Below, piece after piece: positions 1,099-62,162 of a stretch of DNA of 64,000 nt. The notes under the pieces were generated by a model. That model worked only from the letters and a program-made list of their open reading frames with translations. It was not told the DNA's origin and made no database searches. This DNA is from a virus (taxonomy: Duplodnaviria > Caudoviricetes). Numbering within the stretch: the stretch's first letter is position 1; every line of letters begins with the position of its first letter. Location: positions 5,325 to 69,324 of IMG/VR virus record IMGVR_UViG_3300014204_000179, one strand, 5' to 3'. Made by a program: the position numbers and the translations under genes.

Positions 1099-2064
1099 TT
1101 AGACACTTATATTATTTTTTAATATTTCAGAAATATTATTTCTTTCAGTATATTTTATACGTAATAATATTAAATCATTATTTATTGCATATTCTGTTTT
1201 TATTTTATCATTTTGTTGAATTTTATTAAGTTTTAAATTACCACCAAAATGTTCAAATGCATAATAATGTTGAATACCATCATACTCTATTAACGTTTTT
1301 TTTTCAGGTAAATAAAAATCAAAATATAATTTATGTTTATTGTTTTTACAATTATCAAATCCTTTTTGATATTCAAAAATTATATGATTTTTTTTCAAAA
1401 ATTGAGTAATTTTTTCTTCACCCTTTGAATTATTACAAAATGGACAACCTTGACCACATAAATGTGAATTCGGTTTTTGTGAAAATTCACCATGTTTTTT
1501 ACAAAAAATTTTTATTTTTTTATGTGCATTAATATATTTTACAAATGAATAGTCATATACATTATTATGAACATTATTTGCCTTTTTAATAAATTCTTCT
1601 GTTGTTAATTTTTTACTTGGATGTGAACATTTGGGACAACAATGTCCGTTCAAGTGATCAGAAGCAATTTGTTCAAATATTCCATGTTCGAAACAAATAA
1701 TTTCTACTTTATTTCTACTACTACTATAATTTGTTATCGAATAATCATATTTATTGTTATGAATTTTATTTGCTTTATATTTAAAATTTTTATTTGCTTT
1801 TAATATTTTATCATTTCCTCTTTTTATAATTCCACATTTTGGACATCCTTGACCATTTAAATGTGAATTAGGCGTTTGTTTAAAATCACCATGAATATTA
1901 CAAGAAATTATTAATTTATCTAAACATTTACAATAAATCGATTTTGAATAATCATACTTATTTCTATGATATTTTTTTGCTCTTTCAATAAATTCTATTG
2001 TTGTTAAATTTCCCATAATTTTTATAATTATATAACCGTACCCCCAATTAGCAAATTCAAACAT
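1099..2064 (-). CDS. Putative homing endonuclease (CxxHGxF..GxGCPxC repeats plus C-terminal PD-(D/E)XK/Vsr-like domain)
   Basis: Three repeats of KYDYS...C..HG.F.Q....HL.G..CP.C followed by FDFYLPEKKTLIEYDGIQH. True start may be the second Met (about 2016). Confidence 0.8.
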   Translation of the reverse strand: MFEFANWGYGYIIIKIMGNLTTIEFIERAKKYHRNKYDYSKSIYCKCLDKLIISCNIHGDFKQTPNSHLNGQGCPKCGIIKRGNDKILKANKNFKYKANKIHNNKYDYSITNYSSSRNKVEIICFEHGIFEQIASDHLNGHCCPKCSHPSKKLTTEEFIKKANNVHNNVYDYSFVKYINAHKKIKIFCKKHGEFSQKPNSHLCGQGCPFCNNSKGEEKITQFLKKNHIIFEYQKGFDNCKNNKHKLYFDFYLPEKKTLIEYDGIQHYYAFEHFGGNLKLNKIQQNDKIKTEYAINNDLILLRIKYTERNNISEILKNNISV

Positions 2065-2187: not shown

Positions 2188-3294
2188 TTATAAAGTAAAC
2201 CTATTTTGTTTTTGTGCTTTACGTTTTAATTCATTTACATTACGATATGCTTCAGGATTAAAATTCTCCCTTTTTACTATTGAAACTAAGAAATTAAATT
2301 CATTTTGACAAATAACTTGACCAATATAATCATTATTCTCTGTCTTAAGAACATAACTTTTTGGTGCTCTACTTGTAGAAGAAGGATTACCTTCAACATC
2401 AATTGTTGCATCGAAAGTAAGATCAAGAACTTCCTGAATTTTTTCCTGAACATTTGCAGTCATCTTTTCTTTAGTTCTAATTAATGCTTTTTCAAGTAAA
2501 TCAACAATACTATCTTGATGATTTTTTTTAATTTCTTCATATGCCTGAGTAAATTCAGTGTTTGAAGTTTTCTGCTTCAATTCACTTATAATTGCAAGTG
2601 CACCATAACAGTCACGAATCATTAAATCCCAAACTTGTTCAGCATAAGTAAATGAAGGAAATTTATCAATTGCAACAATTTCACCATCAATTAATATAAC
2701 AACACCAATAAGGTTTTTGGGACGTTCAAAGTGAGCAATAAATTGTTCAAGTTTCTTATCATATTTTTCAAAATATACATTAAGATAACGACCAGTACCT
2801 GAATCGGTTTCACGACCTAATTTTTCAATAGCCGGATAAATTCTACCAAGATCAGATGGTTTTCCGATAGTATCAAATACCATTTCACGCATAGTTATCG
2901 GAAGCATACGAAATTCCTGAGTACCTCTAAATGTTCCACCCTGAGAACCTTGAACACAACCAGCATCATGGTAAGTAATGTTTGATTTACTTGCCATATA
3001 ACCTGCTTTGGTCATACCATGATTCTGAGCACTTTGTTTAGTAATTACCGCCATTTGTGTTGGTAAAATAATTTCCTTATCTTCTTTATTGGTAAAACTA
3101 ATCTGACCATATGTAGAATTACCAGCAACTAATGAAGTCAATGGATTAGCAAAACGTTCATCCATAGAATATTCTTTATCAGTCGTTAAACATACAACTT
3201 GCATATTTAATATGCTTTGTATTACTATGTTACCGTTTTTATCTTTAATTGGACGACAACCTTTTAATAGTTCAGTAAAATCTCTTGTATTCAT
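2188..3294 (-). CDS. ARPP-1 (DUF6569)-like protein
   Basis: Motifs AQNH...AGCVQGSQGG and GVVILIDGEIVAIDKFPS...VW..M.RDCYG resemble the ARPP-1/DUF6569 family (recognised from memory, needs HMM confirmation). Confidence 0.6.
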   Translation of the reverse strand: MNTRDFTELLKGCRPIKDKNGNIVIQSILNMQVVCLTTDKEYSMDERFANPLTSLVAGNSTYGQISFTNKEDKEIILPTQMAVITKQSAQNHGMTKAGYMASKSNITYHDAGCVQGSQGGTFRGTQEFRMLPITMREMVFDTIGKPSDLGRIYPAIEKLGRETDSGTGRYLNVYFEKYDKKLEQFIAHFERPKNLIGVVILIDGEIVAIDKFPSFTYAEQVWDLMIRDCYGALAIISELKQKTSNTEFTQAYEEIKKNHQDSIVDLLEKALIRTKEKMTANVQEKIQEVLDLTFDATIDVEGNPSSTSRAPKSYVLKTENNDYIGQVICQNEFNFLVSIVKRENFNPEAYRNVNELKRKAQKQNRFTL

Positions 3295-3710
3295 AATAAA
3301 TTAATTTTAATATTTATTTTTTCACATGCTAAATTATATACTTCAAACGCTAATTCTTCTGTTTCAAATCTACCTAAAAATTTTGTTTTATTACAAATTG
3401 TTATTCTTGATATCCAAGGTTTTTGAGAATTTTGTTTATCTTGCGATACACCAACATATTTACTACTACTTTTCATTCTTCTTCTCGCATGATGAGTATT
3501 CTCTCTTGAAGTACACCATTCCAAATTTAATAAAAAATTATTTTTTCTATTTCTATCCTTATGATTTACTTCATTTAAATTATTTAAATAAGGAATAAAA
3601 GCTTCAGCAACTAATCTATGTATAGTATGTGACTTATTTATATTATTTTTTGATAAAGTTACTAAAACATAACCTTCACTTATAAAAGTATTTTTCAATG
3701 AACCTTTCAA
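3291..3710 (-). CDS. HNH homing endonuclease with C-terminal AP2-like domain; NUMOD4 segment continues upstream in frame to about 3812
   Basis: IHRLVAEAF...EVNHKDRNRKNN...NLEWCTSREN (HNH) and SKYVGVS...W.SRI...K.KFLGRFETEE.A..VYN (AP2). The same frame upstream reads KNIVGYEGYYQISNFGRVRS (NUMOD4). Confidence 0.85.
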   Translation of the reverse strand: MKGSLKNTFISEGYVLVTLSKNNINKSHTIHRLVAEAFIPYLNNLNEVNHKDRNRKNNFLLNLEWCTSRENTHHARRRMKSSSKYVGVSQDKQNSQKPWISRITICNKTKFLGRFETEELAFEVYNLACEKINIKINLL

Positions 3711-3838: not shown

Positions 3839-5467
3839 TTAAACGTTAATACTAATTTTTTTTGACCTTTTAATTGGTATAGATTCAAGAACCAATACCT
3901 GATTTTCAAGCCACTTTTTGGTATCAATTTCAAGCAACCTTGCGTTAATCTGTGGTTGTAATGCTACTGGATTGTTAATTGCCATTGTAATAACCTTTGA
4001 ACCCAATTTTCTCACATTACCACCCATTTCAGCACTGGTAATTGGTGAAATTTGAAACATTGGAATATTTCTACCACTTTCTGCTGTCCAAATACCTATA
4101 ACTTCATTTGTTAATCCATCATAAGCATTTTCATAACCATCAGTTAAAATGAAAATTGCATCATATGGTTTTAAAGGATTTTCCCTTTTTAATAAATCAA
4201 TAAATGAAGTAGCTAAATCAGTAACTTCACCTTCAGTTCCGATTATAACACCTGTTTTTGTAGACTTCAAAAGAACTTTTGCTGTAAATTCTGCAATAGC
4301 TTTTGGGGTGTTTTTAGATTCTTGTTTATGACCAGTCATTGAATTACTATTATCAACAATAATACCAATATTTTGATAAAAGAATCCATCAATCTTCTTC
4401 TTTTCTGCAAGTTTATCAATTGCAGTTTTAATTTCATTAGTAAAACCATTTTCATAACCAGTTTTGTAAAGTGCTAAGAAATCAGTTGCCTTTTCCAAGT
4501 CAACATTTTTTTCAACACCTAACTTAGCTGTCGATTTTGTTTGACGTACCTGCTGGTTAATAGAAGTAACTTCAACATTTTTCCTAATTAAAGCTTTTGT
4601 TGTTTCTTTCTGAAGTTTTGTTGCCCACATTGAATGATATTGTGGATGTTTTACACTTGAAATTAAACCCAAAAGAACTTCTTCCGGTACAGTTTTAATT
4701 CCAGTAACATCTACTTTTGCTTTTTGATATTCACTCAAAAGAGGAAATTCTGTTACATCATAAGTGATATTATCATCCCTTTTGTAAATAAAAAGTAATA
4801 GTTTAAATGCTTTAATTGCATCACCATTAAAATACTTCAAAATTAATTCATTTGCAATATTTCCTTCCTTTTCATTACTAATTCCAGTAGGATATGTTAT
4901 CTGCTTACTTGCTATTGAAAGCAATACTGATGTCATTTTATTTCCATAAATATGTTTTAAAACCTGAGCAATCTTATTACGATATTTCATCGTATAAAAT
5001 TCAAGATTTGATTGACCCCAAATAAAACCAAGTGCAATCTTTCTTGATCTTTCATTATTTACTTTAGCACTTTTCAATCCCACAAATAAACGAAGAACAT
5101 ATGGAATACCATTTTCACCAAGATTATTTAATGCAGACAAAACTGCTTTATCACTTAATCCATTATCATACCAGTCAAGTGGATTAACAATATTACATGC
5201 TCCACCCCTTAAAGTACTTTTAAATTCATTAAGTAATACCTCTGAAATAAACAGACCTGTAGCACCTTTTTGATTTGCTACAATTAAAGGTAATTCTTTC
5301 GAAAGCATATACAAATTCCTAATTTGAGTTTGAATAGCTTTTGTTTGATCTTCTTTCTTATGGTAATAAGTAGCACTGCTCTTAGCACCACTTGCAACAG
5401 TTAAACCATCAATTAATGATTGTTTTACTATACTGAGCATTTTTTGTGTTAATACCAAATCTTTCAT
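3839..5467 (-). CDS. vWA-domain protein with ~360-aa helical N-terminal region (Ro60/TROVE-like architecture)
   Basis: C-terminal MIDAS motif IIVDNSNSM...TDLA...IFILTDGYEN. The 542-aa size and helical-N/vWA-C layout match Ro60/Rsr. The TROVE assignment is an inference. Confidence 0.65.
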   Translation of the reverse strand: MKDLVLTQKMLSIVKQSLIDGLTVASGAKSSATYYHKKEDQTKAIQTQIRNLYMLSKELPLIVANQKGATGLFISEVLLNEFKSTLRGGACNIVNPLDWYDNGLSDKAVLSALNNLGENGIPYVLRLFVGLKSAKVNNERSRKIALGFIWGQSNLEFYTMKYRNKIAQVLKHIYGNKMTSVLLSIASKQITYPTGISNEKEGNIANELILKYFNGDAIKAFKLLLFIYKRDDNITYDVTEFPLLSEYQKAKVDVTGIKTVPEEVLLGLISSVKHPQYHSMWATKLQKETTKALIRKNVEVTSINQQVRQTKSTAKLGVEKNVDLEKATDFLALYKTGYENGFTNEIKTAIDKLAEKKKIDGFFYQNIGIIVDNSNSMTGHKQESKNTPKAIAEFTAKVLLKSTKTGVIIGTEGEVTDLATSFIDLLKRENPLKPYDAIFILTDGYENAYDGLTNEVIGIWTAESGRNIPMFQISPITSAEMGGNVRKLGSKVITMAINNPVALQPQINARLLEIDTKKWLENQVLVLESIPIKRSKKISINV

Positions 5468-5538: not shown

Positions 5539-5594
5539 AAATAAAATGGGCAGAGTAGGCATATTTCTATGCCTTGTCCCCACCCATTTTATTT
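5539..5594 (-). terminator. Long hairpin with GAAA tetraloop and U-rich tail between the RNA array and the vWA gene (terminator or processing site)
   Basis: Minus strand ATAAAATGGG-TGGGGACA-AGGCATA-GAAA-TATGCCT-ACTCTG-CCCATTTTAT, followed by TTTTTATTT. Confidence 0.6.
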
Positions 5595-5622
5595 AAGGAA
5601 TAACTTATCTTCTCAATAAAGA

Positions 5623-5693
5623 GAAGAAGTTCGACTGTATTGTTTAATAATTATTATATTTCAAATATTTACTGAAAACACAATCAGTTCTTC
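5623..5693 (-). ncRNA. Array unit A: conserved module closing an AT-rich loop (no tRNA part)
   Basis: 5' GAAGAACTGATTGTGTTTTCAGTA pairs with 3' ACAATACAGTCGAACTTCTTC (GAAGAA/TTCTTC and ATTGT/ACAAT). Confidence 0.7.
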
Positions 5694-5815
5694 CAAATAT
5701 TTTTGAAAAATATCACACTTCTGTGATTTAAAATCATTTTTAACCTACGAACTAAAAAGAACGTTTCAAATGTTAGGCGGTAATTTTTATATTCTGATAC
5801 CGACAGAAATAATGT

Positions 5816-5960
5816 TTGGGAACATTTTAAAAGTATTTTTTGTTATAAATGCAAGTTTAAGAGACTTGTGCCTTATCCAGCTTGGCTAATCGTTCAATTT
5901 TTGAAGAACAATATCGGATTCGAACCGATGAATTACTGTAAACACTTTTCGTTTTCCCAA
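5816..5960 (-). ncRNA. Array unit B: circularly permuted tRNA-Lys(CTT)-like RNA joined to the conserved module at the variable loop
   Basis: Order on minus strand: module 5' strand, T arm ATCGG-TTCGAAT-CCGAT, acceptor 3' ATTGTTC, 10-nt linker, acceptor 5' GAACGAT, TA, D arm GCC-AAGCTGGATAA-GGC, anticodon arm CAAGT-CTCTTAA-ACTTG, module 3' strand. Confidence 0.85.
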
Positions 5961-5964
5961 TTTG

Positions 5965-6098
5965 CGGGGAGAGTTGGAGTCGAACCAACATAAACTGTTT
6001 TCACACAATTATTTTACCTTTTTTACTGAAAACACCATTAGTTTTCCCATTTAAGGGAATATTGAGATAGTATTATTTTTCGATATTTCTATCTCCCC
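5965..6098 (-). ncRNA. Array unit C: tRNA-like RNA with the module inserted in place of the D-loop; degenerate 6-nt anticodon loop
   Basis: Acceptor GGGGAGA/TCTCCCC is perfect. T arm GTTGG-TTCGACT-CCAAC. Anticodon-like arm ATTGT-GTGAAA-ACAGT. Insert AATACTAT..TTCCC-ttaaat-GGGAA-AACTA-ATGGTGTT-TTCAGTA. Confidence 0.8.
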
Positions 6099-6128
6099 AT
6101 TTTAATATTTTAAAGAACTTTAAAAATT

Positions 6129-6205
6129 AGAAGAAGTTTGTTAGTTTTTGTTTTGTAATGATTCGATTTACCGTCAAATTTACTGAAAAAACTATCAGTT
6201 CTTCT
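6129..6205 (-). ncRNA. Array unit D: conserved module closing a short insert with a T-loop-like remnant
   Basis: AGAAGAACTGATAGTTTTTTCAGTA ... AAAAACTAACAAACTTCTTCT; core TAGTTTTT pairs 8/8 with AAAAACTA; the insert contains TCGAATC. Confidence 0.7.
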
Positions 6206-6212
6206 TTTTTAG

Positions 6213-6286
6213 TAGCGGGAGTGGGATTTGAACCCACGAACTTGTGGTTATGAGCCACACGAGATGACCATCTTCTCCATCCCGCA
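6213..6286 (-). tRNA. tRNA-Met (CAT), initiator-like 1:72 mismatch, CCA not encoded
   Basis: Full cloverleaf: TGCGGGA/TCCCGCT, D arm GAGA/TCTC, TGTGG-CTCATAA-CCACA, GTGGG-TTCAAAT-CCCAC. Confidence 0.9.
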
Positions 6287-6295
6287 ATATATTTT

Positions 6296-6423
6296 AAAAA
6301 GGATATTGTGTTTGTTGTGTTTGTTTAAGAATATGGGAATTGAACCCACGACATTCTGCTTACGAAGCGGATGCTCTACCAATTGAGCTAATTCATACTG
6401 AAACAACAATCAGTTTCCTTTTT
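6296..6423 (-). ncRNA. Array unit E: conserved module clamped around a complete tRNA-Thr(CGT)-like cloverleaf
   Basis: AAAAGGAAACTGATTGTTGTTTCAG precedes the tRNA and AAACACAACAAACACAATATCCTTTT follows it (AAAAGGA/TCCTTTT and TTGTTGT/ACAACAA). Confidence 0.8.
6325..6397 (-). tRNA. tRNA-Thr (CGT)-like cloverleaf embedded in unit E
   Basis: TATGAAT/ATTCTTA (one mismatch), GCTC-AATTGGTA-GAGC, TCCGC-TTCGTAA-GCAGA (one mismatch), GTGGG-TTCAATT-CCCAT; no CCA. Confidence 0.7.
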
Positions 6424-6425
6424 TG

Positions 6426-6560
6426 TGGGGAAGGTAGGAATCGAACCTACAATCAACTGTTCTAAAGACAATTTGCTGTACCTTTTACTGAAATCACAAT
6501 CAGTTCTCCAGCAGGAGTATGACGATTATAATCTTGTTTTTTATATTTGCATACTTCCCC
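6426..6560 (-). ncRNA. Array unit F: tRNA-like RNA with the module inserted in the D-loop; anticodon position reads TTA
   Basis: Acceptor GGGGAAG/CTTCCCC, D-stem TGC/GCA around a long insert ending GGTACAGCA, ATTGT-CTTTAGA-ACAGT, T arm GTAGG-TTCGATT-CCTAC. Confidence 0.8.
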
Positions 6561-6612
6561 ATTAATTTACTTCACAATAAGTGAAAGAACTTTTTTTATT
6601 ATAAAGACGATG

Positions 6613-6643
6613 CAAATGTATTTTAAAAAAATTTACTATGCAA
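6613..6643 (-). promoter_or_regulatory. Bacteroidota housekeeping-sigma promoter driving the RNA array
   Basis: Minus strand TTG (6643-6641), 20-nt spacer, TACATTTG(CA) (6620-6613); matches the TTG-N19..21-TAnnTTTG consensus. Confidence 0.75.
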
Positions 6644-6743: not shown

Positions 6744-6796
6744 TAAGATGATTTTTTAAAATTCCTTTCAATACTGTGGGGAAAGTGTGGGTAATT
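6744..6796. repeat. Left arm of perfect 53-bp inverted repeat
   Basis: TAAGATGATTTTTTAAAATTCCTTTCAATACTGTGGGGAAAGTGTGGGTAATT is the exact reverse complement of 7098-7150. Confidence 0.95.
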
Positions 6797-7097: not shown

Positions 7098-7150
7098 AAT
7101 TACCCACACTTTCCCCACAGTATTGAAAGGAATTTTAAAAAATCATCTTA
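7098..7150. repeat. Right arm of perfect 53-bp inverted repeat
   Basis: AATTACCCACACTTTCCCCACAGTATTGAAAGGAATTTTAAAAAATCATCTTA; 301-bp spacer to the left arm. Confidence 0.95.
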
Positions 7151-20249: not shown

Positions 20250-20825
20250 TTATTTTTTTATAATATAATAACAATCATTATCTATTAATATTTTTTCTTC
20301 TTTTTTTTGAAGAAATTCATCAACTGCAATAGTTGCACCTTTACAATAATCTGAATTATAGTCATCTAATATTATATATCCACCAACAATCATTTTATCA
20401 TAAAAAAATTCTAATGCTAATTTATGTGACAAATATTGATCAACATCTAAATGAACTAAATTGAATTTAATATTTATAATATGTTTTCCAGTTTCTTCAG
20501 GAAAAATACCTTTAAATATTAGAACATTAATGTCAGGAAATAATTTACAAGTTTCATCATATGATGTATCGTAAAAATCACCAAGATTATGCCAATTATC
20601 ACAATCAGATTTATAAGGCATACCATTAAATGTATCAAATAAATATAAATTACTATTTTTATTCATTACATCATATATTACTTTTGCACTACCACCTTTA
20701 TAAACACCAACTTCAGCAATATTTGCTTCAATATCACCCAATTCAATTATTTTATTTTTAATAAAATTAATTTTTTTCTTTAAAACAATAGTTTCACCAA
20801 ATTTTAATGTATCGCATTTTTTCAT
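20250..20825 (-). CDS. TylF/MycF-family O-methyltransferase
   Basis: IAEVGVYKGGS, LFDTFNGMP, KGIFPET, VHLDVD.Y, GGYIILDDY. Confidence 0.85.
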   Translation of the reverse strand: MKKCDTLKFGETIVLKKKINFIKNKIIELGDIEANIAEVGVYKGGSAKVIYDVMNKNSNLYLFDTFNGMPYKSDCDNWHNLGDFYDTSYDETCKLFPDINVLIFKGIFPEETGKHIINIKFNLVHLDVDQYLSHKLALEFFYDKMIVGGYIILDDYNSDYCKGATIAVDEFLQKKEEKILIDNDCYYIIKK

Positions 20826-22495
20826 GTAAATTTTTCAATAATATTATAAATTCTTTCTGCAGCATGTCCATCACCAAACGGACAATCGTAATTAATTTCA
20901 TAATCATTAATATGTTTCAAAAATTCACCAAGTAATAATTCTGGTGATTCTATCATAAATGTACTCTGTCCTATTGCTTCAGGTCGTTCAGTAATAATTC
21001 TGCAAGTTAAACATTTTTTATTAAAAAAACTACATTCTTCTTGTAATCCACCACTATCAGTAATTACAAGTCTTGTTTTTATTAATAAATTAAGCATATC
21101 CTCATATGATAACGGATCAATTACTTTAACATATTTTAATAAATGTTTATGTTTTTGAACATTTGGATTTGGATGTATAGGCAAAATAAATTCATATTGA
21201 GGATATAACTTTGCAAGTGTGTTGATTACAGTAAACCACTGGTCAAGCCAGTGATGATTTTCACGTCTATGTAGAGTTATTAATATCTTATTTGTATATT
21301 CACATTTTTCCTTATACGGTAAAAGATTATCTATTACAGTATTTCCAACTACGAAAAATTCACCAAAACATCTTTCTCTTGTAAGATTTTTTAATGCTTC
21401 TTCAGTTGGACATAAATGAATATCGGCAATTTGCGAAATAAGTCTACGATTAATTTCTTCAGGATATGGATTTTGTTTATTGTATGTACGAAGTCCTGCT
21501 TCTAAATGAATTATTTTAATATTATTATGAAAAGCTGTTAATGCTACTGCAAATGCTGAAGTAGTATCCCCTTGAACCATAACATGAGTAATATATGGAT
21601 GTTTATTTAAAAATTTTCCAAAATTATTAATGTTTCCAACTACAATCGAATCTAATCTGTTTGATTCTTTATTTTCTTTAATGTTGAATGAAAAATCATA
21701 TTTGTTCCTATTTACTATATTTTTATGTTGTCCAGTAAATGCATATAAAACTGGAATAAAATTTTTTTCGAGGGTTTGTACTAACTTAAATGTTTTTAAT
21801 TCCTCTGGACGAGTTCCCGCAACTATTAATATACATTTTGTATAATCAACCGAATTCTTGAATTCATTTTTATATTCGATAGTTAATAATTTTCTTAATT
21901 TTTTTAAAAATCCATATGGTATTCTTATTAATCTAATATTATTCTCATTACAATATTTAGTTTTAATTATTTCATTTTCTTTTATTTTTTTCAATTTGTT
22001 TTGAAAAATACCCGTTTCCCTATAAATAAAATGTTGCTCACCATCATATTCAATACAGCAATTATAATCAGGTAAATAAAAATCAAATGGAAGGGGTCGC
22101 CTTTCACCCCTGCAATTATTAAATAAATATTCTTTAATAAAATTTATATTTAGTTCATTCAATATTCTTGAAATTTCCTTTTCTCCCTTAGATTCTTTAT
22201 TGCACACGGGACACCATGTACCATTTGATATATGTTTTGTTGTTGCAAGCCAAGTATGATTATTTTGACATTCCCATTCGTATTTATGATTAACTGATTG
22301 ATATCTTGATGATAGACAAATACCATTATTCTTTTTTGCTAAATTATTTAAATATTCAACACCAAAATATTCTTTCGATAAGAAATTTCCTCCCTTTTCT
22401 TTAATTATTTTCAGTAATTTATTATATATATTTACTTTTTTTAAACGCATATTATATATTTTATTGTTCCGTATACTAATATTATCATAATTCAA
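20822..22495 (-). CDS. wecB: Fusion of a PD-(D/E)XK homing-endonuclease-like module (N-terminal) and UDP-GlcNAc 2-epimerase (C-terminal)
   Basis: N-terminus WECQNNH.W...GTWCPVC...PFDFYLPDYNCCIEYDGEQH. C-terminus GTRPE, TGQH, VQGDTTSA, HLEAGLRT, PYPEEINR, TLHRREN, TDSGGLQEE, PFGDGHAAERI. Confidence 0.85.
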   Translation of the reverse strand: MNYDNISIRNNKIYNMRLKKVNIYNKLLKIIKEKGGNFLSKEYFGVEYLNNLAKKNNGICLSSRYQSVNHKYEWECQNNHTWLATTKHISNGTWCPVCNKESKGEKEISRILNELNINFIKEYLFNNCRGERRPLPFDFYLPDYNCCIEYDGEQHFIYRETGIFQNKLKKIKENEIIKTKYCNENNIRLIRIPYGFLKKLRKLLTIEYKNEFKNSVDYTKCILIVAGTRPEELKTFKLVQTLEKNFIPVLYAFTGQHKNIVNRNKYDFSFNIKENKESNRLDSIVVGNINNFGKFLNKHPYITHVMVQGDTTSAFAVALTAFHNNIKIIHLEAGLRTYNKQNPYPEEINRRLISQIADIHLCPTEEALKNLTRERCFGEFFVVGNTVIDNLLPYKEKCEYTNKILITLHRRENHHWLDQWFTVINTLAKLYPQYEFILPIHPNPNVQKHKHLLKYVKVIDPLSYEDMLNLLIKTRLVITDSGGLQEECSFFNKKCLTCRIITERPEAIGQSTFMIESPELLLGEFLKHINDYEINYDCPFGDGHAAERIYNIIEKFT

Positions 22496-45038: not shown

Positions 45039-46247
45039 ATGAAATTTATTTATAAATCATATAAATTTAAAATTATCCCCAATAATGAGCAAAAAGTTCT
45101 TTTTGCTAAACATTTTGGAGCTTGTAGATTTGTGTTTAACCATTATTTAAATCTTAGAAAAGAAACTTATTTAGAAGAAAAAAAATCACTTAACTATTAT
45201 GATAACGCAAATGACCTGACTATTTTAAAAAAGAATGAACAGTTTGTATGGCTAAAAGAAATTAACTCACAAAGTTTACAGTCATCACTTAGAAATTTAG
45301 ATACGGCATATAATAAATTTTTTAGAAGACAAACTCAATTTCCAAAATTTAAAAACAAATACAACAAACAAAGTTTTACCATACCACAGTCAGTATATAT
45401 CGAAAAAGATAAACTTTATATACCAAAATTTAAAAAAGGAATTAAAATAAATATTCACAAACAAATTAAAGGTAAAATTCTTTCTACAACAATATCTATG
45501 TCAACAACGGGTAAATACTATGTAAGTTTTACTTGTGAAGTTGAATATACCCCATTTGAAAAAACAAATTCAAATATTGGTATTGATACAGGTATAAAGG
45601 ATTTAGCAATACTTTCAGACGGTAAAGTCTATAAAAACATTAAGACACTTAAAACCAATTTAAAAAAGTTAAAATATAATCAAAGACAATTATCTAAAAA
45701 AGTAAAAGGAAGTAATTCCAAATTAAAACAAAAATCAAAACTTGCAATAGTACACGAAAAAATAAGTAATATTAGAAAAGACTATTTACATAAAGTCAGT
45801 ACAGAAATCATCAAAAACCACGATGTAATTTGTATTGAAGATTTGACAGTAAAAAATATGATGAAGAATCATAAGTTAGCACAAGCATTTTTGGATGTTT
45901 CGTTGGGAACTTTTTACACTATGCTTGAATATAAAGCTAATTGGAATGACAAAATAATCGTTAAGATTGATAGATTTTTTCCAAGTAGTAAAACATGTAA
46001 TGTTTGTAATTATATTAATCAAAACTTAACTCTAAAAGATAGAAAATGGACTTGTCCAAGTTGTAATACAATACACGATAGAGATTTTAATGCAAGTATA
46101 AATATTAAGAAACAAGGTTTAAAAATACTATCTGGTTCAGGAACTGAATCGGATATAAAACAAAAACATGATGAGGCATTATCAATTGATAAGTCAATGA
46201 AGCATGAAACCAATTTAATTGGTAGTTCATATGTACTAAAACTATAA
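45039..46247 (+). mobile_element. tnpB: IS200/IS605-family TnpB RNA-guided nuclease, no TnpA nearby
   Basis: FGACRFVFN, RuvC residues GIDTG / IEDL / HDRDFNA, Zn finger CNVC..CPSC; right-end-like hairpin ACCAATT-T-AATTGGT-AGTTCAT ending at 46230. Confidence 0.9.
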
Positions 46248-61046: not shown

Positions 61047-62162
61047 ATGAAATCATATCAAACACAATATGCAGAAATATTGGAAAACCTAATAAGATTT
61101 CCGCATAAACAAAGACCATCACGTATTGGTACAACACGTAGCCGATTTGTTGAAGTTATTAGAATTGATTTACAAAAAGAATTTCCTTTAATGGAAATCA
61201 AAAAAATTCAATTTAGTAATATATTACATGAATTATTATGGTTTATTCATGGTAATACTTGTAATAAATATTTAATTGATAACAGATGTAACATTTGGAC
61301 TGATGATTCTTGGAGATATTATAATGAAAAATATGTGTCATTGGGGGCTCCTAAAATTAGTAAAGATGAATTTATTGAAAATACAAAAAATAGTAAAAGT
61401 ATTTCCATTTTTGATCCAACAAATTCACAACATTCACAACTATATTATCATTATGGTGATTTAGACCGTGTTTATGGTAAACAATGGAGAAATTTTAATG
61501 GAAAAACTGACCAACTTCAAAATTGTATTAATTTATTAATAAAAAATCCAGATGACCGTAGAATAATTGTAACCGCACATAATTCTTCAGATATTGAAGA
61601 TAATGTAGTTGGTCTACCATCTTGTCACAATATGTTTCAATTTTATACAATTCCATTAACACGTAAAGAAAGAATTAATCTTCTTACTATTGACGATCTT
61701 TCAATTTCGGATATTGTAGATGATAGTGATGAAAATATTGAAAAATATTTAGATAATGCAGAAATACCGAAATTTTATTTAAATATTTGGTTTAATATTA
61801 GAAGTAATGATTTTTTTCTTGGAAATCCTTATAACATTGCAAGTTATGCTTTATTAAATCATATAATTGCAAACATTGTTAATATGATACCCAATGAATT
61901 AGTTTGTACAGCAATTGATTGTCATTTATATGAAGCACACATACTTGCAGCAGAAGAATGGGTTAATAGATATATAAAAATTATTGAAGAAAATTATATT
62001 GGTGAAACTGGTGTTGAAGAATCTCCTAATGATGTTACATTTTGTCAATCAAAAATTAAGATTAATAGAAATTTAACATCTATTGATAATATTGAAGCTG
62101 ATGATTTTGAATTAATTAATTATAATCCACAGTCATATATTAAAGCACCATTATTAACATAA
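61047..62162 (+). CDS. thyA: Thymidylate synthase
   Basis: ELLWFI.G, IW, VYGKQWR, DRRIIV, LPSCH (catalytic Cys), RSND.FLGNPYNIASYA, DCHLYE.H. Confidence 0.95.
   Translation: MKSYQTQYAEILENLIRFPHKQRPSRIGTTRSRFVEVIRIDLQKEFPLMEIKKIQFSNILHELLWFIHGNTCNKYLIDNRCNIWTDDSWRYYNEKYVSLGAPKISKDEFIENTKNSKSISIFDPTNSQHSQLYYHYGDLDRVYGKQWRNFNGKTDQLQNCINLLIKNPDDRRIIVTAHNSSDIEDNVVGLPSCHNMFQFYTIPLTRKERINLLTIDDLSISDIVDDSDENIEKYLDNAEIPKFYLNIWFNIRSNDFFLGNPYNIASYALLNHIIANIVNMIPNELVCTAIDCHLYEAHILAAEEWVNRYIKIIEENYIGETGVEESPNDVTFCQSKIKINRNLTSIDNIEADDFELINYNPQSYIKAPLLT

What the first reader, a model, noticed from the sequence alone, without database searches (positions are those of the whole stretch)
5623..6560. Six-copy RNA handle whose variable core covaries with its partner strand
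Minus-strand 5' strands: A GGAAGAACTGATTGTGTTTTCAGTA; B GGGAAAACGAAAAGTGTTTACAGTA; C GGGAAAACTAATGGTGTTTTCAGTA; D AGAAGAACTGATAGTTTTTTCAGTA; E AAGGAAACTGATTGTTGTTTCAGTA; F TGGAGAACTGATTGTGATTTCAGTA. AAC and CAGTA are invariant. The purine-rich start pairs with a matching pyrimidine strand in every copy (TTCTTC, TTCCC, TCC, CTCC). The central core differs per copy but keeps its own complement: D TAGTTTTT/AAAAACTA, B AAGTGTTT/AAATACTT, E TTGTTGT/ACAACAA, F GATTGTGAT/ATTATAATC, C ATGGTGTT/AATACTAT, A ATTGT/ACAAT. This gives helix, internal loop, helix, with sequence conservation concentrated at the loop and junction, as expected for a protein-binding site.
Basis: seen in the sequence. Interest (0 to 1): 0.85.

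Follow-up and report, generated by a model that had tools for sequence, protein, structure and literature searches.

The report
Ro60-partner handle on phage tRNA-like RNAs
The six repeats are one strand of a conserved two-helix stem built into six small tRNA-shaped RNAs that lie just upstream of a very divergent Ro60-type RNA-binding protein gene in an uncultured giant phage. This makes them most likely a new branch of the known Ro60/Y-RNA partnership, not a new kind of tRNA splicing signal.

Summary
All six minus-strand copies exist as written and are the only six in the 69-kb virus record. Each pairs with its own partner strand to give P1, an AAC bulge, P2 and a single-stranded UCAGUA junction.

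- F and C carry it as a hairpin inside the D-loop of a cloverleaf.
- B is a circularly permuted tRNA with the stem at the variable-arm position.
- E is a linear tRNA-Thr(CGT) bracketed by the stem.
- D carries an anticodon-arm-like hairpin, and A a degenerate one.

The cluster ends in a terminator about 70 nt before a 542-aa ORF with no Pfam hit. Its high-confidence model matches Ro60/TROVE (Z 18.5 over 406 residues, MIDAS motif kept).

At least 41 of 43 related loci long enough to show it keep this RNA-then-protein order. Homologues at 27-28% identity keep it too, with an ARPP-1/2 gene after the Ro60-like gene. Covariation supports every helix.

Best reading (about 0.65): a Ro60-binding handle of Y-RNA-like tRNA mimics. 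It is not a member of Rfam YrlA, and binding is untested.

The scan reached the same reading earlier on other DNA. Side finding: anticodon loops with G34-U35 never carry U33.

The parts
6426..6560 (-). Unit F: cloverleaf tRNA-like RNA (7-bp acceptor stem, T arm, anticodon arm with nominal UUA). The handle hairpin (partner, P1 loop, handle; 6486-6535) is inserted in the D-loop.
   Evidence: MFE fold. Rfam tRNA partial hit of 25 bits at 6432-6489. Alignment and covariation of 12 homologues.
6296..6422 (-). Unit E: the handle 5' strand, then tRNA-Thr(CGT) at 6325-6397, then the A/C-rich linker and partner strand.
   Evidence: ARAGORN and Rfam tRNA, 62 bits. RNAduplex. Alignment A5.
6212..6286 (-). 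Plain tRNA(CAT) without a handle, lying between units E and D. It serves as an internal control.
   Evidence: ARAGORN and Rfam, 61 bits. The CAT anticodon is kept in 12 related loci.
6128..6207 (-). Unit D: handle, then a 5-bp stem with the 7-nt loop CGGUAAA (an anticodon-arm-like hairpin), then the partner strand.
5965..6098 (-). Unit C: cloverleaf tRNA-like RNA (nominal GAA) with the handle hairpin (6024-6075) in the D-loop region. The D-stem is degenerate in this copy.
5815..5960 (-). Unit B: circularly permuted tRNA. Order: handle, T arm, acceptor 3' strand, linker, acceptor 5' strand, D arm, anticodon arm (CUU), A/C-rich linker, partner. The stem sits at the variable-arm position.
   Evidence: MFE fold. 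Alignment and covariation. ARAGORN calls tRNA-Lys(CTT) after in-silico re-permutation.
5621..5696 (-). Unit A: handle, a short AT-rich cargo, then the partner strand. Relatives carry a GC-rich hairpin at this position.
5539..5594 (-). Strong hairpin followed by a U-run: the likely terminator of the RNA cluster.
   Evidence: MFE -30.7 kcal/mol, z -5.6, 0 of 200 shuffles as stable.
6598..6627 (-). Promoter-like site (TTTAAA, 18 nt, TATAAT) about 40 nt upstream of unit F.
   Evidence: Consensus scan only, and not above the chance level for this AT-rich region.
3839..5467 (-). 542-aa Ro60-like protein: helical-repeat ring plus a vWA domain with a DxSxS MIDAS motif.
   Evidence: AF2 pLDDT 92.7. The Foldseek top 12 are all Ro60/TROVE. 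VIA Z 18.5, rmsd 4.2, 406 residues aligned to 2i91_A; Z 14.9 to Thermus phage phiLo Ro60. D372, S374 and S376 are conserved. No Pfam, PHROG or PDB sequence hit.
2188..3294 (-). ARPP-1 domain protein, the conserved gene after the Ro60-like gene.
   Evidence: PF20208, E 3e-13. Syntenic in relatives and in 27-28% identity clades, where it is called ARPP-1/ARPP-2. No structural match.
3291..3710 (-). HNH endonuclease ORF between the Ro60-like and ARPP-1 genes in this genome.
   Evidence: PHROG HNH families. In relatives the two flanking genes lie about 55 nt apart.

Best explanation
The six repeats are the 5' strands of one conserved bipartite stem. The stem consists of P1, a 5' bulge that begins with AAC, P2, a single-stranded (U/A)CAGUA junction, and an A/C-rich linker on the opposite strand.

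This stem is the shared module of six small RNAs. The cluster lies directly upstream of a very divergent Ro60 (TROVE plus vWA) gene in an uncultured jumbo myophage and ends in its own terminator.

By analogy with Y RNAs, whose bulged 5'/3' stem is the Ro60 binding site, the stem most likely docks each RNA on the phage Ro60-like ring. The variable payload is then displayed:
- a whole cloverleaf with the stem in the D-loop (F, C);
- a permuted tRNA with the stem in place of the variable arm (B);
- a linear tRNA (E);
- an anticodon-arm mimic (D);
- a degenerate hairpin (A).

Shown here: the RNA structure, the tRNA wiring, the Ro60-like fold of the neighbouring protein, and the conserved RNA-then-Ro60-like-then-ARPP gene order.

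Inferred: that the Ro60-like protein binds the stem, and what the particle does. My guess for its role is tRNA quality control, repair, or protection against host enzymes that act on anticodon loops.
For: 1. Structure: P1 and P2 are present in all six copies. Compensatory changes in homologues exceed both controls.

2. The same stem appears in permuted connectivity, closed at P1 in F and C and open at P1 in A, B, D and E. This fits a two-strand recognition module.

3. The downstream ORF folds as Ro60. The Foldseek top 12 hits are all Ro60/TROVE, VIA gives Z 18.5 over 406 residues, and the MIDAS motif is kept.

4. Linkage: 38 of 55 handle clusters have the Ro60-like gene 220-1730 nt downstream on the same strand. 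Twelve loci are cut off too soon and three more carry the gene, which leaves 2 of 43 informative loci without it.

5. In homologues at 27-28% identity (L155, L158) the upstream region again holds units of the form P1, AAC or ACU, P2, ACAG(U/A)A with tRNA-like or permuted modules. The 31% homologue L117 has permuted tRNA-like units upstream, with a related handle read by eye.

6. Precedent: YrlA-type tRNA-like Y RNAs lie within 4 kb of Ro60 on the same strand in bacteria and phages (PMC4201824). Thermus phage phiLo Ro60 binds two stem-bulge-stem RNAs encoded upstream of its gene (PMC12135203).
Against: The published bacterial Ro60 motif GNCGAAN0-1G is absent from five of six copies, and only B has a partial ACGAAAAG. 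Rfam YrlA does not recognise the units.

Pfam TROVE does not hit the protein, so homology rests on fold.

The ARPP-1 gene is equally linked and could be the binder instead.

Most payload anticodon loops look like working tRNA loops. U33 is present in 36 of 38 B/E-type loops without G34-U35. This fits real tRNAs that need maturation better than inert mimics do.
Confidence: 0.65

Rival explanations
1. The handle binds another partner, either the equally conserved ARPP-1/ARPP-2 protein or a host factor. The Ro60-like protein would then act on other RNAs in the same pathway.
For: The ARPP-1/2 gene follows the Ro60-like gene in the window's clade and in the 27-28% identity clades. The handle lacks the published Ro60 motif.
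Against: Ro60 proteins are the only members of this gene neighbourhood with a known habit of binding bulged stems of adjacent tRNA-like RNAs (PMC4201824, PMC12135203). The ARPP protein has no recognisable RNA-binding fold: pLDDT is 70.5 and Foldseek found no PDB match.
Confidence: 0.12
2. The stem is an intron-like processing element. An endonuclease cuts both strands at the junction and a ligase rejoins the tRNA side. This would splice F and C and circularise B, as in permuted tRNA genes of red algae and in archaeal bulge-helix-bulge introns.
For: F and C keep full cloverleaves with 7-bp acceptor stems. B is a genuine permuted tRNA, and several B-type relatives encode CCA after the discriminator. 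ARAGORN accepts re-permuted B units as tRNAs.
Against: No bulge-helix-bulge can be drawn at any junction. The strands next to P2 are unpaired UCAGUA and A/C-rich runs.

The stem also brackets an already complete tRNA (E) and tiny hairpins (D, A), where splicing has no purpose.

No EndA or RtcB family was found in the 69-kb record, but only 23% of the genome is held, so this is weak.

Linkage to a Ro60-like gene is not predicted by this model.
Confidence: 0.08
3. The stems are RNase III-type punctuation signals that cut a polycistronic precursor into units, like the bulged hairpins between phage T7 early genes.
For: There are about 16-19 bp of helix with an asymmetric internal loop. The units lie in tandem between a promoter-like site and a terminator.
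Against: In F and C the stem lies inside the tRNA body, where cleavage would destroy it. The invariant single-stranded AAC and CAGUA are not explained. Linkage to the Ro60-like gene across 27-100% identity is not predicted.
Confidence: 0.05
4. The repeats are scars or copies of a small selfish repeat, or the product of recombination between tRNA genes, and have no function of their own.
For: They are direct repeats of 70-95% identity in a region that also carries homing-endonuclease ORFs.
Against: Partner strands co-vary copy by copy. The unit order is syntenic in dozens of contigs at 60-84% protein identity. The motif persists at 27% protein identity in GC-rich genomes.
Confidence: 0.03

Closest known systems
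YrlA-type bacterial and phage Y RNAs with Ro60/Rsr (Rfam RF02553; Chen et al. 2014, PMC4201824)
   Same: - A small RNA gene next to and on the same strand as a Ro60-type gene.
- A 5'/3' stem with a bulge carrying a conserved 5'-strand motif.
- A permuted tRNA-like domain with T arm, D arm and an acceptor stem closed by a loop (unit B).
- CCA encoded or addable at the acceptor end.
   Different: - The motif is AAC...(U/A)CAGUA, not GNCGAAN0-1G.
- The Rfam model scores 23 bits against a gathering score of 69.
- The stem sits at the variable-arm position and the anticodon arm is kept, whereas in YrlA the stem replaces the anticodon arm.
- Two further wirings exist: a D-loop insertion and bracketing of a linear tRNA.
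- There are six units per locus.
- The protein is not detectable by Pfam TROVE.
Thermus phage phiLo Ro60 with Yrl1 and Yrl2 (PMC12135203; PDB 9KOP, 9L5Y)
   Same: A phage Ro60 with stem-bulge-stem RNAs encoded directly upstream. The protein fold matches (Z 14.9).
   Different: The phiLo RNAs were picked by a CGAA bulge and are not described as tRNA-like. Here there are six modular RNAs with tRNA payloads, plus an ARPP-1 partner gene.
Circularly permuted and bulge-helix-bulge intron tRNA genes (Cyanidioschyzon merolae, nucleomorphs, archaea)
   Same: In B the 3' half lies before the 5' half, with leader and trailer pairing. F and C carry an insertion at a non-canonical D-loop position.
   Different: There is no bulge-helix-bulge motif. 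No splicing endonuclease was found. The host is a bacteriophage, and the same stem also occurs on non-tRNA cargos.
Two-piece tmRNA from permuted ssrA genes (Rfam RF04321 and relatives)
   Same: A permuted gene in which an acceptor-stem loop could be removed. That would leave a two-piece tRNA-like molecule held together by a helix.
   Different: There is no mRNA-like module. The Rfam permuted-tmRNA hit is noise at 16 bits.

Membership tests
Y RNA / YrlA (Ro60-bound RNA) | Encoded within about 4 kb of a Ro60 orthologue on the same strand | tested here: met
   The cluster ends about 70 nt before the Ro60-like ORF start at 5467. The same order holds in at least 41 of 43 informative loci.
Y RNA / YrlA (Ro60-bound RNA) | Stem-bulge-stem formed by distant strands, with a conserved motif in the 5' strand | tested here: met
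   P1, AAC bulge, P2 in all six copies, with covariation.
Y RNA / YrlA (Ro60-bound RNA) | Bacterial Ro60 motif GNCGAAN0-1G (vertebrate GGUCCGA) | tested here: not met
   Five copies read RAACUGAU or RAACUAAU. Only B reads AACGAAAAG, a partial match.
Y RNA / YrlA (Ro60-bound RNA) | Rfam RF02553 covariance model at or above its gathering score (69 bits) | tested here: not met
   The best hit is 23 bits and spans two different units.
Y RNA / YrlA (Ro60-bound RNA) | Physical binding to Ro60 | not testable with these tools
   No protein-RNA docking or expression data were available.
Ro60 / TROVE protein | Helical-repeat ring followed by a vWA domain with a MIDAS motif | tested here: met
   Model pLDDT 92.7. 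Z 18.5 with 406 residues aligned to Xenopus Ro60, spanning model residues 16-511. DxSxS is conserved.
Ro60 / TROVE protein | Sequence match to Pfam TROVE or to solved Ro60 chains | tested here: not met
   No Pfam family at E up to 10. phmmer and a 69-sequence profile against PDB find no Ro60.
Bulge-helix-bulge tRNA intron / permuted tRNA pathway | Two 3-nt bulges separated by a 4-bp helix at the exon-intron junctions | tested here: not met
   The junction strands are unpaired UCAGUA and A/C-rich runs of 8-15 nt.
Bulge-helix-bulge tRNA intron / permuted tRNA pathway | Splicing endonuclease and RtcB-type ligase encoded or available | tested here: inconclusive
   PF01974 and PF01139 are absent from the 69-kb record, which is only about 23% of the genome. 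The host is unknown.
tRNA (RF00005) | Cloverleaf recognised by tRNA models | tested here: met
   E scores 62 bits. F and C give partial hits of 25 and 17.5 bits, interrupted by the insert. B is recognised by ARAGORN only after re-permutation.

The most novel reading that the evidence does not exclude
The payloads are working or near-working tRNAs, not inert mimics. On this reading the locus is a phage toolkit of quickly re-targeted anticodon arms carried on a Ro60-like ring.

B-type RNAs would be cut at the acceptor loop into two-piece tRNAs whose split long variable arm is the handle.

The loops are under selection to escape a host enzyme that reads U33-G34-U35. That enzyme could be tRNA-guanine transglycosylase or an anticodon nuclease of similar specificity.

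Evidence that does not exclude this:
- Orthologous modules switch anticodon (at least 14 kinds in B, 9 in E), while the plain tRNA(CAT) never does.
- U33 is kept in 47 of 52 loops without G34-U35 and in 0 of 14 with it. The roughly ten D-type C-N-G-U-A-A-A loops also lack U33.
- A34 versions (AUU, AUG, AUC) occur.
Probability: 0.2. Interest if true: 0.85.

Novelty: new variant of a known kind. Interest (0 to 1): 0.62.

Why it matters
Ro60 and Y RNAs are conserved from bacteria to humans, yet the role of the tRNA-like part of bacterial Y RNAs is still unknown.

This phage family offers a natural series in which one docking stem carries very different payloads: whole tRNAs, permuted tRNAs and bare anticodon arms. 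Their loops obey a sharp sequence rule. That makes it directly testable what a Ro60 particle does with tRNA shapes.

It also shows that standard tRNA finders miss most tRNA-type genes at such loci. ARAGORN found 2 of the window's 5 cloverleaf-type genes.

Finally, Pfam misses a large Ro60 clade: about 300 clusters at 50% identity.

Tried and rejected
- Rfam at gathering and at E up to 10 gave only tRNA hits and noise: YrlA 23 bits, permuted tmRNA 16 bits.
- Self-cleaving ribozyme cores (hammerhead CUGANGA...GAAA, twister, hairpin) and a kink-turn were checked by eye against the six copies. They were rejected because the required GA or GAAA positions are absent or vary in B and C.
- A bulge-helix-bulge was rejected.
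- RtcB and the tRNA-intron endonuclease were not found in the record.
- The 542-aa protein had no hit in Pfam, PHROGs, or PDB by sequence or profile. The profile gave only a weak vWA hit, 6pyo, E 0.41.
- The ARPP-1 protein model found no PDB fold match by Foldseek.
- In the cultured and deposited phage collection, the DNA region matches only through its tRNA(CAT). The protein matches one uncultured 462-kb phage at 27% identity.
- The promoter scan was not above chance.
- The first pattern scan of viral contigs returned mostly chance hairpins, because the ACUGA..UCAGU part is near-palindromic. True members were separated by the purine-rich P1 and by clustering.
- Literature searches for permuted or D-loop-interrupted tRNAs in phages found no description.

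Full report
**Observation.** Their AAC...CAGTA spans are F 6505-6486, E 6415-6396, D 6200-6181, C 6043-6024, B 5953-5934 and A 5689-5670. The window is part of a 69,324-base IMG/VR virus record estimated at 23% complete. A degenerate pattern finds exactly these six copies in it and none with the control pattern.

Each handle has a partner strand. RNAduplex gives a purine-rich P1 of 4-7 bp, a 5' bulge beginning with AAC, and a P2 of 8-12 bp, at -11.4 to -17.3 kcal/mol. Five of the six P2 cores pair best with their own partner in a 6x6 cross test.

**What the units are.**

- F (6560-6426) and C (6098-5965) are cloverleaves with 7-bp acceptor stems, T arms and anticodon arms. Partner, P1 loop and handle form a roughly 50-nt hairpin inserted between the 5' strand of the D-stem and G18-G19.
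- B (5960-5815) is a circularly permuted tRNA. Its order is handle, T arm, acceptor 3' strand, 10-nt linker, acceptor 5' strand, D arm, anticodon arm (CUU), A/C-rich linker, partner. The stem therefore stands where a long variable arm would.
- E (6422-6296) is a normal tRNA-Thr(CGT), 62 bits in Rfam, bracketed by handle and partner.
- D (6207-6128) carries only a 5-bp stem with the 7-nt loop CGGUAAA.
- A (5696-5621) carries an AT-rich remnant.
- A plain tRNA(CAT) lies between E and D.

The same stem is thus used in permuted connectivity, closed at P1 in F and C and open at P1 elsewhere. The cluster is followed by a strong hairpin plus U-run at 5594-5539 (z -5.6).

**Relatives.** Two pattern scans of viral contigs brought in 55 loci with at least two true handles. 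The unit order F, E, tRNA(CAT), D, C, B, A is largely syntenic.

Covariation is strong. For the D-loop-insert type, 96.5% of cells pair and 16 of 31 pairs have changes on both sides. No shuffle in 500 reaches this, and slid controls pair at about 50%. For the permuted type the figures are 95.1%, 22 of 36 pairs, and 0 of 500. P1, P2, acceptor, T, D and anticodon stems are all supported.

**The neighbour.** The ORF starting at 5467 (542 aa) has no Pfam, PHROG or PDB sequence match. About 300 clusters at 50% identity are related to it. A 69-sequence alignment shows a conserved DxSxS motif.

The AlphaFold model has pLDDT 92.7. Its 12 best Foldseek hits are all Ro60/TROVE structures. VIA-align gives Z 18.5, rmsd 4.2 A and 406 aligned residues to Xenopus Ro60, and Z 14.9 to the Ro60 of Thermus phage phiLo. 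The protein is therefore a very divergent Ro60-like protein.

An ARPP-1 domain gene follows it. In this genome an HNH endonuclease ORF lies between the two.

**Linkage.**
- In 38 of 55 handle loci the Ro60-like gene lies 220-1730 nt downstream on the same strand.
- Twelve loci end too early to tell.
- Three more carry the gene, and two do not.
- Homologues at only 27-28% identity (L155 at 48% GC, L158) again have upstream units built as purine-rich P1, AAC or ACU, P2, ACAG(U/A)A. These carry tRNA-like or permuted modules, and an ARPP-1/ARPP-2 gene lies downstream of the Ro60-like gene.
- The 31% homologue L117 has permuted tRNA-like units upstream, with a related handle that I read by eye.

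**Interpretation.** Y RNAs are defined by a bulged stem, formed by their ends, that Ro60 binds. Bacterial and phage YrlA RNAs add a permuted tRNA-like domain and lie within 4 kb of Ro60 on the same strand (PMC4201824). Phage phiLo Ro60 binds two stem-bulge-stem RNAs encoded upstream of its gene (PMC12135203). Jumbo phages were already noted to carry TROVE proteins (PMC7824862).

The locus fits this pattern, so I read the handle as the Ro60-docking stem of Y-RNA-like RNAs (confidence about 0.65). It is not a member of Rfam YrlA. The model scores 23 bits, the GNCGAAN0-1G motif is missing in five copies, and the stem occupies other positions of the tRNA. Binding is inferred, not shown.

**Rivals.**
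- A splicing or permuted-tRNA pathway is disfavoured. There is no bulge-helix-bulge, and the stem also brackets a complete tRNA and tiny hairpins. No endonuclease or RtcB was seen, but that last point is weak because the record is a fragment.
- RNase III punctuation does not explain stems inside tRNA bodies.
- The ARPP-1 protein cannot be excluded as the binder.

**Unexpected extra.** The plain tRNA keeps CAT in 12 loci. The handle-bearing modules at orthologous positions change anticodon freely: at least 14 kinds in 38 distinct B-type modules and 9 kinds in 12 E-type modules.

Their loops nonetheless obey a rule.
- Loops with G34-U35 never have U33: B 0 of 10, E 0 of 2, D-loop type 0 of 2. 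About ten D-type loops read C-N-G-U-A-A-A.
- Other loops almost always have U33: B 26 of 28, E 10 of 10, D-loop type 11 of 14.
- Position 33 in the G34-U35 loops is A, C or G.

UGU is the minimal element for E. coli tRNA-guanine transglycosylase, and YGU is the element for colicin E5 (PMC1635277). C33 is frequent here, so avoidance of UGU fits better than avoidance of YGU. This suggests that something reads the payload loops, and it keeps open the reading that they are working tRNAs.

**Earlier scan notes.** Notes e1-4043237 and e1-5346388 reached the same Ro60-handle reading on other genomes. I used them as a lead and tested the fold, the linkage and the structure here.

Noticed in passing
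window 6128-6207 (loop CGGUAAA of unit D); loci L008-L154: In handle-bearing tRNA modules, anticodon loops with G34-U35 never have U33, which is A, C or G instead. Counts are B 0 of 10, E 0 of 2, D-loop type 0 of 2, plus about ten D-type CNGUAAA loops. Loops without G34-U35 have U33 in 47 of 52. A34 forms (ATT, ATG, ATC) also occur. The UGU element read by tRNA-guanine transglycosylase is therefore avoided.
   Followed up: partly
window 6325-6397 against 6212-6286, and orthologous positions in 12 loci: The plain tRNA keeps anticodon CAT everywhere. The handle-bracketed tRNA just upstream changes anticodon between relatives: cgt, caa, tat, tca, atc, tga, cct, tta, cga, ttc, gtc, taa. Nominal stop-reading anticodons appear several times (UUA in unit F; TTA or TCA in relatives), although long ORFs read normally under code 11.
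   Followed up: partly
window 6744-6796 and 7098-7150: A perfect 53-nt inverted repeat with 301 nt between the arms. It lies in the divergent intergenic region between the RNA cluster and the DUF3987 helicase gene.
   Followed up: no
window 5756-5762, 6112-6118, 6584-6590 (minus strand): GTTCTTT lies about 15-70 nt upstream of units A, C and F, and is kept at the same places in L105 and L095. It is not enriched window-wide (14 found against 15 expected). It could be a promoter or processing element.
   Followed up: partly
window 6089-6095 and 6064-6070 (minus strand): In C-type units the acceptor 5' strand GAGAUAG can pair with CUAUCUC, which overlaps the P2 partner and the internal loop. This is an alternative fold that competes with both the acceptor stem and the handle. 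It is conserved in several relatives, but there is no covariation with which to test it.
   Followed up: no
window 5621-5696; L105, L073, L121, L129 and others: The A-type cargo in relatives is a GC-rich hairpin with a loop such as CAUGAGA or CGUGAGA. In this window it has decayed to AT-rich sequence.
   Followed up: no
window 3291-3710 and 1099-2064 (minus strand): Two HNH/homing-endonuclease ORFs lie within the Ro60-like, ARPP-1, p354 gene row. In relatives these genes are close-set.
   Followed up: partly
window 45039-46247 (+): A TnpB-type ORF (OrfB_IS605, Cas12f1-like TNB, HTH) inside the phage genome.
   Followed up: no
window 61047-62162 (+): A thymidylate synthase of 371 aa matches a 266-position profile end to end. 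It therefore carries about 100 extra residues, which may be an insertion.
   Followed up: no
window 20822-22495 (-): A UDP-GlcNAc 2-epimerase domain is preceded by about 250 residues that include a treble-clef zinc finger (DUF4379). The same finger occurs in the HNH ORF at 1099-2064.
   Followed up: no
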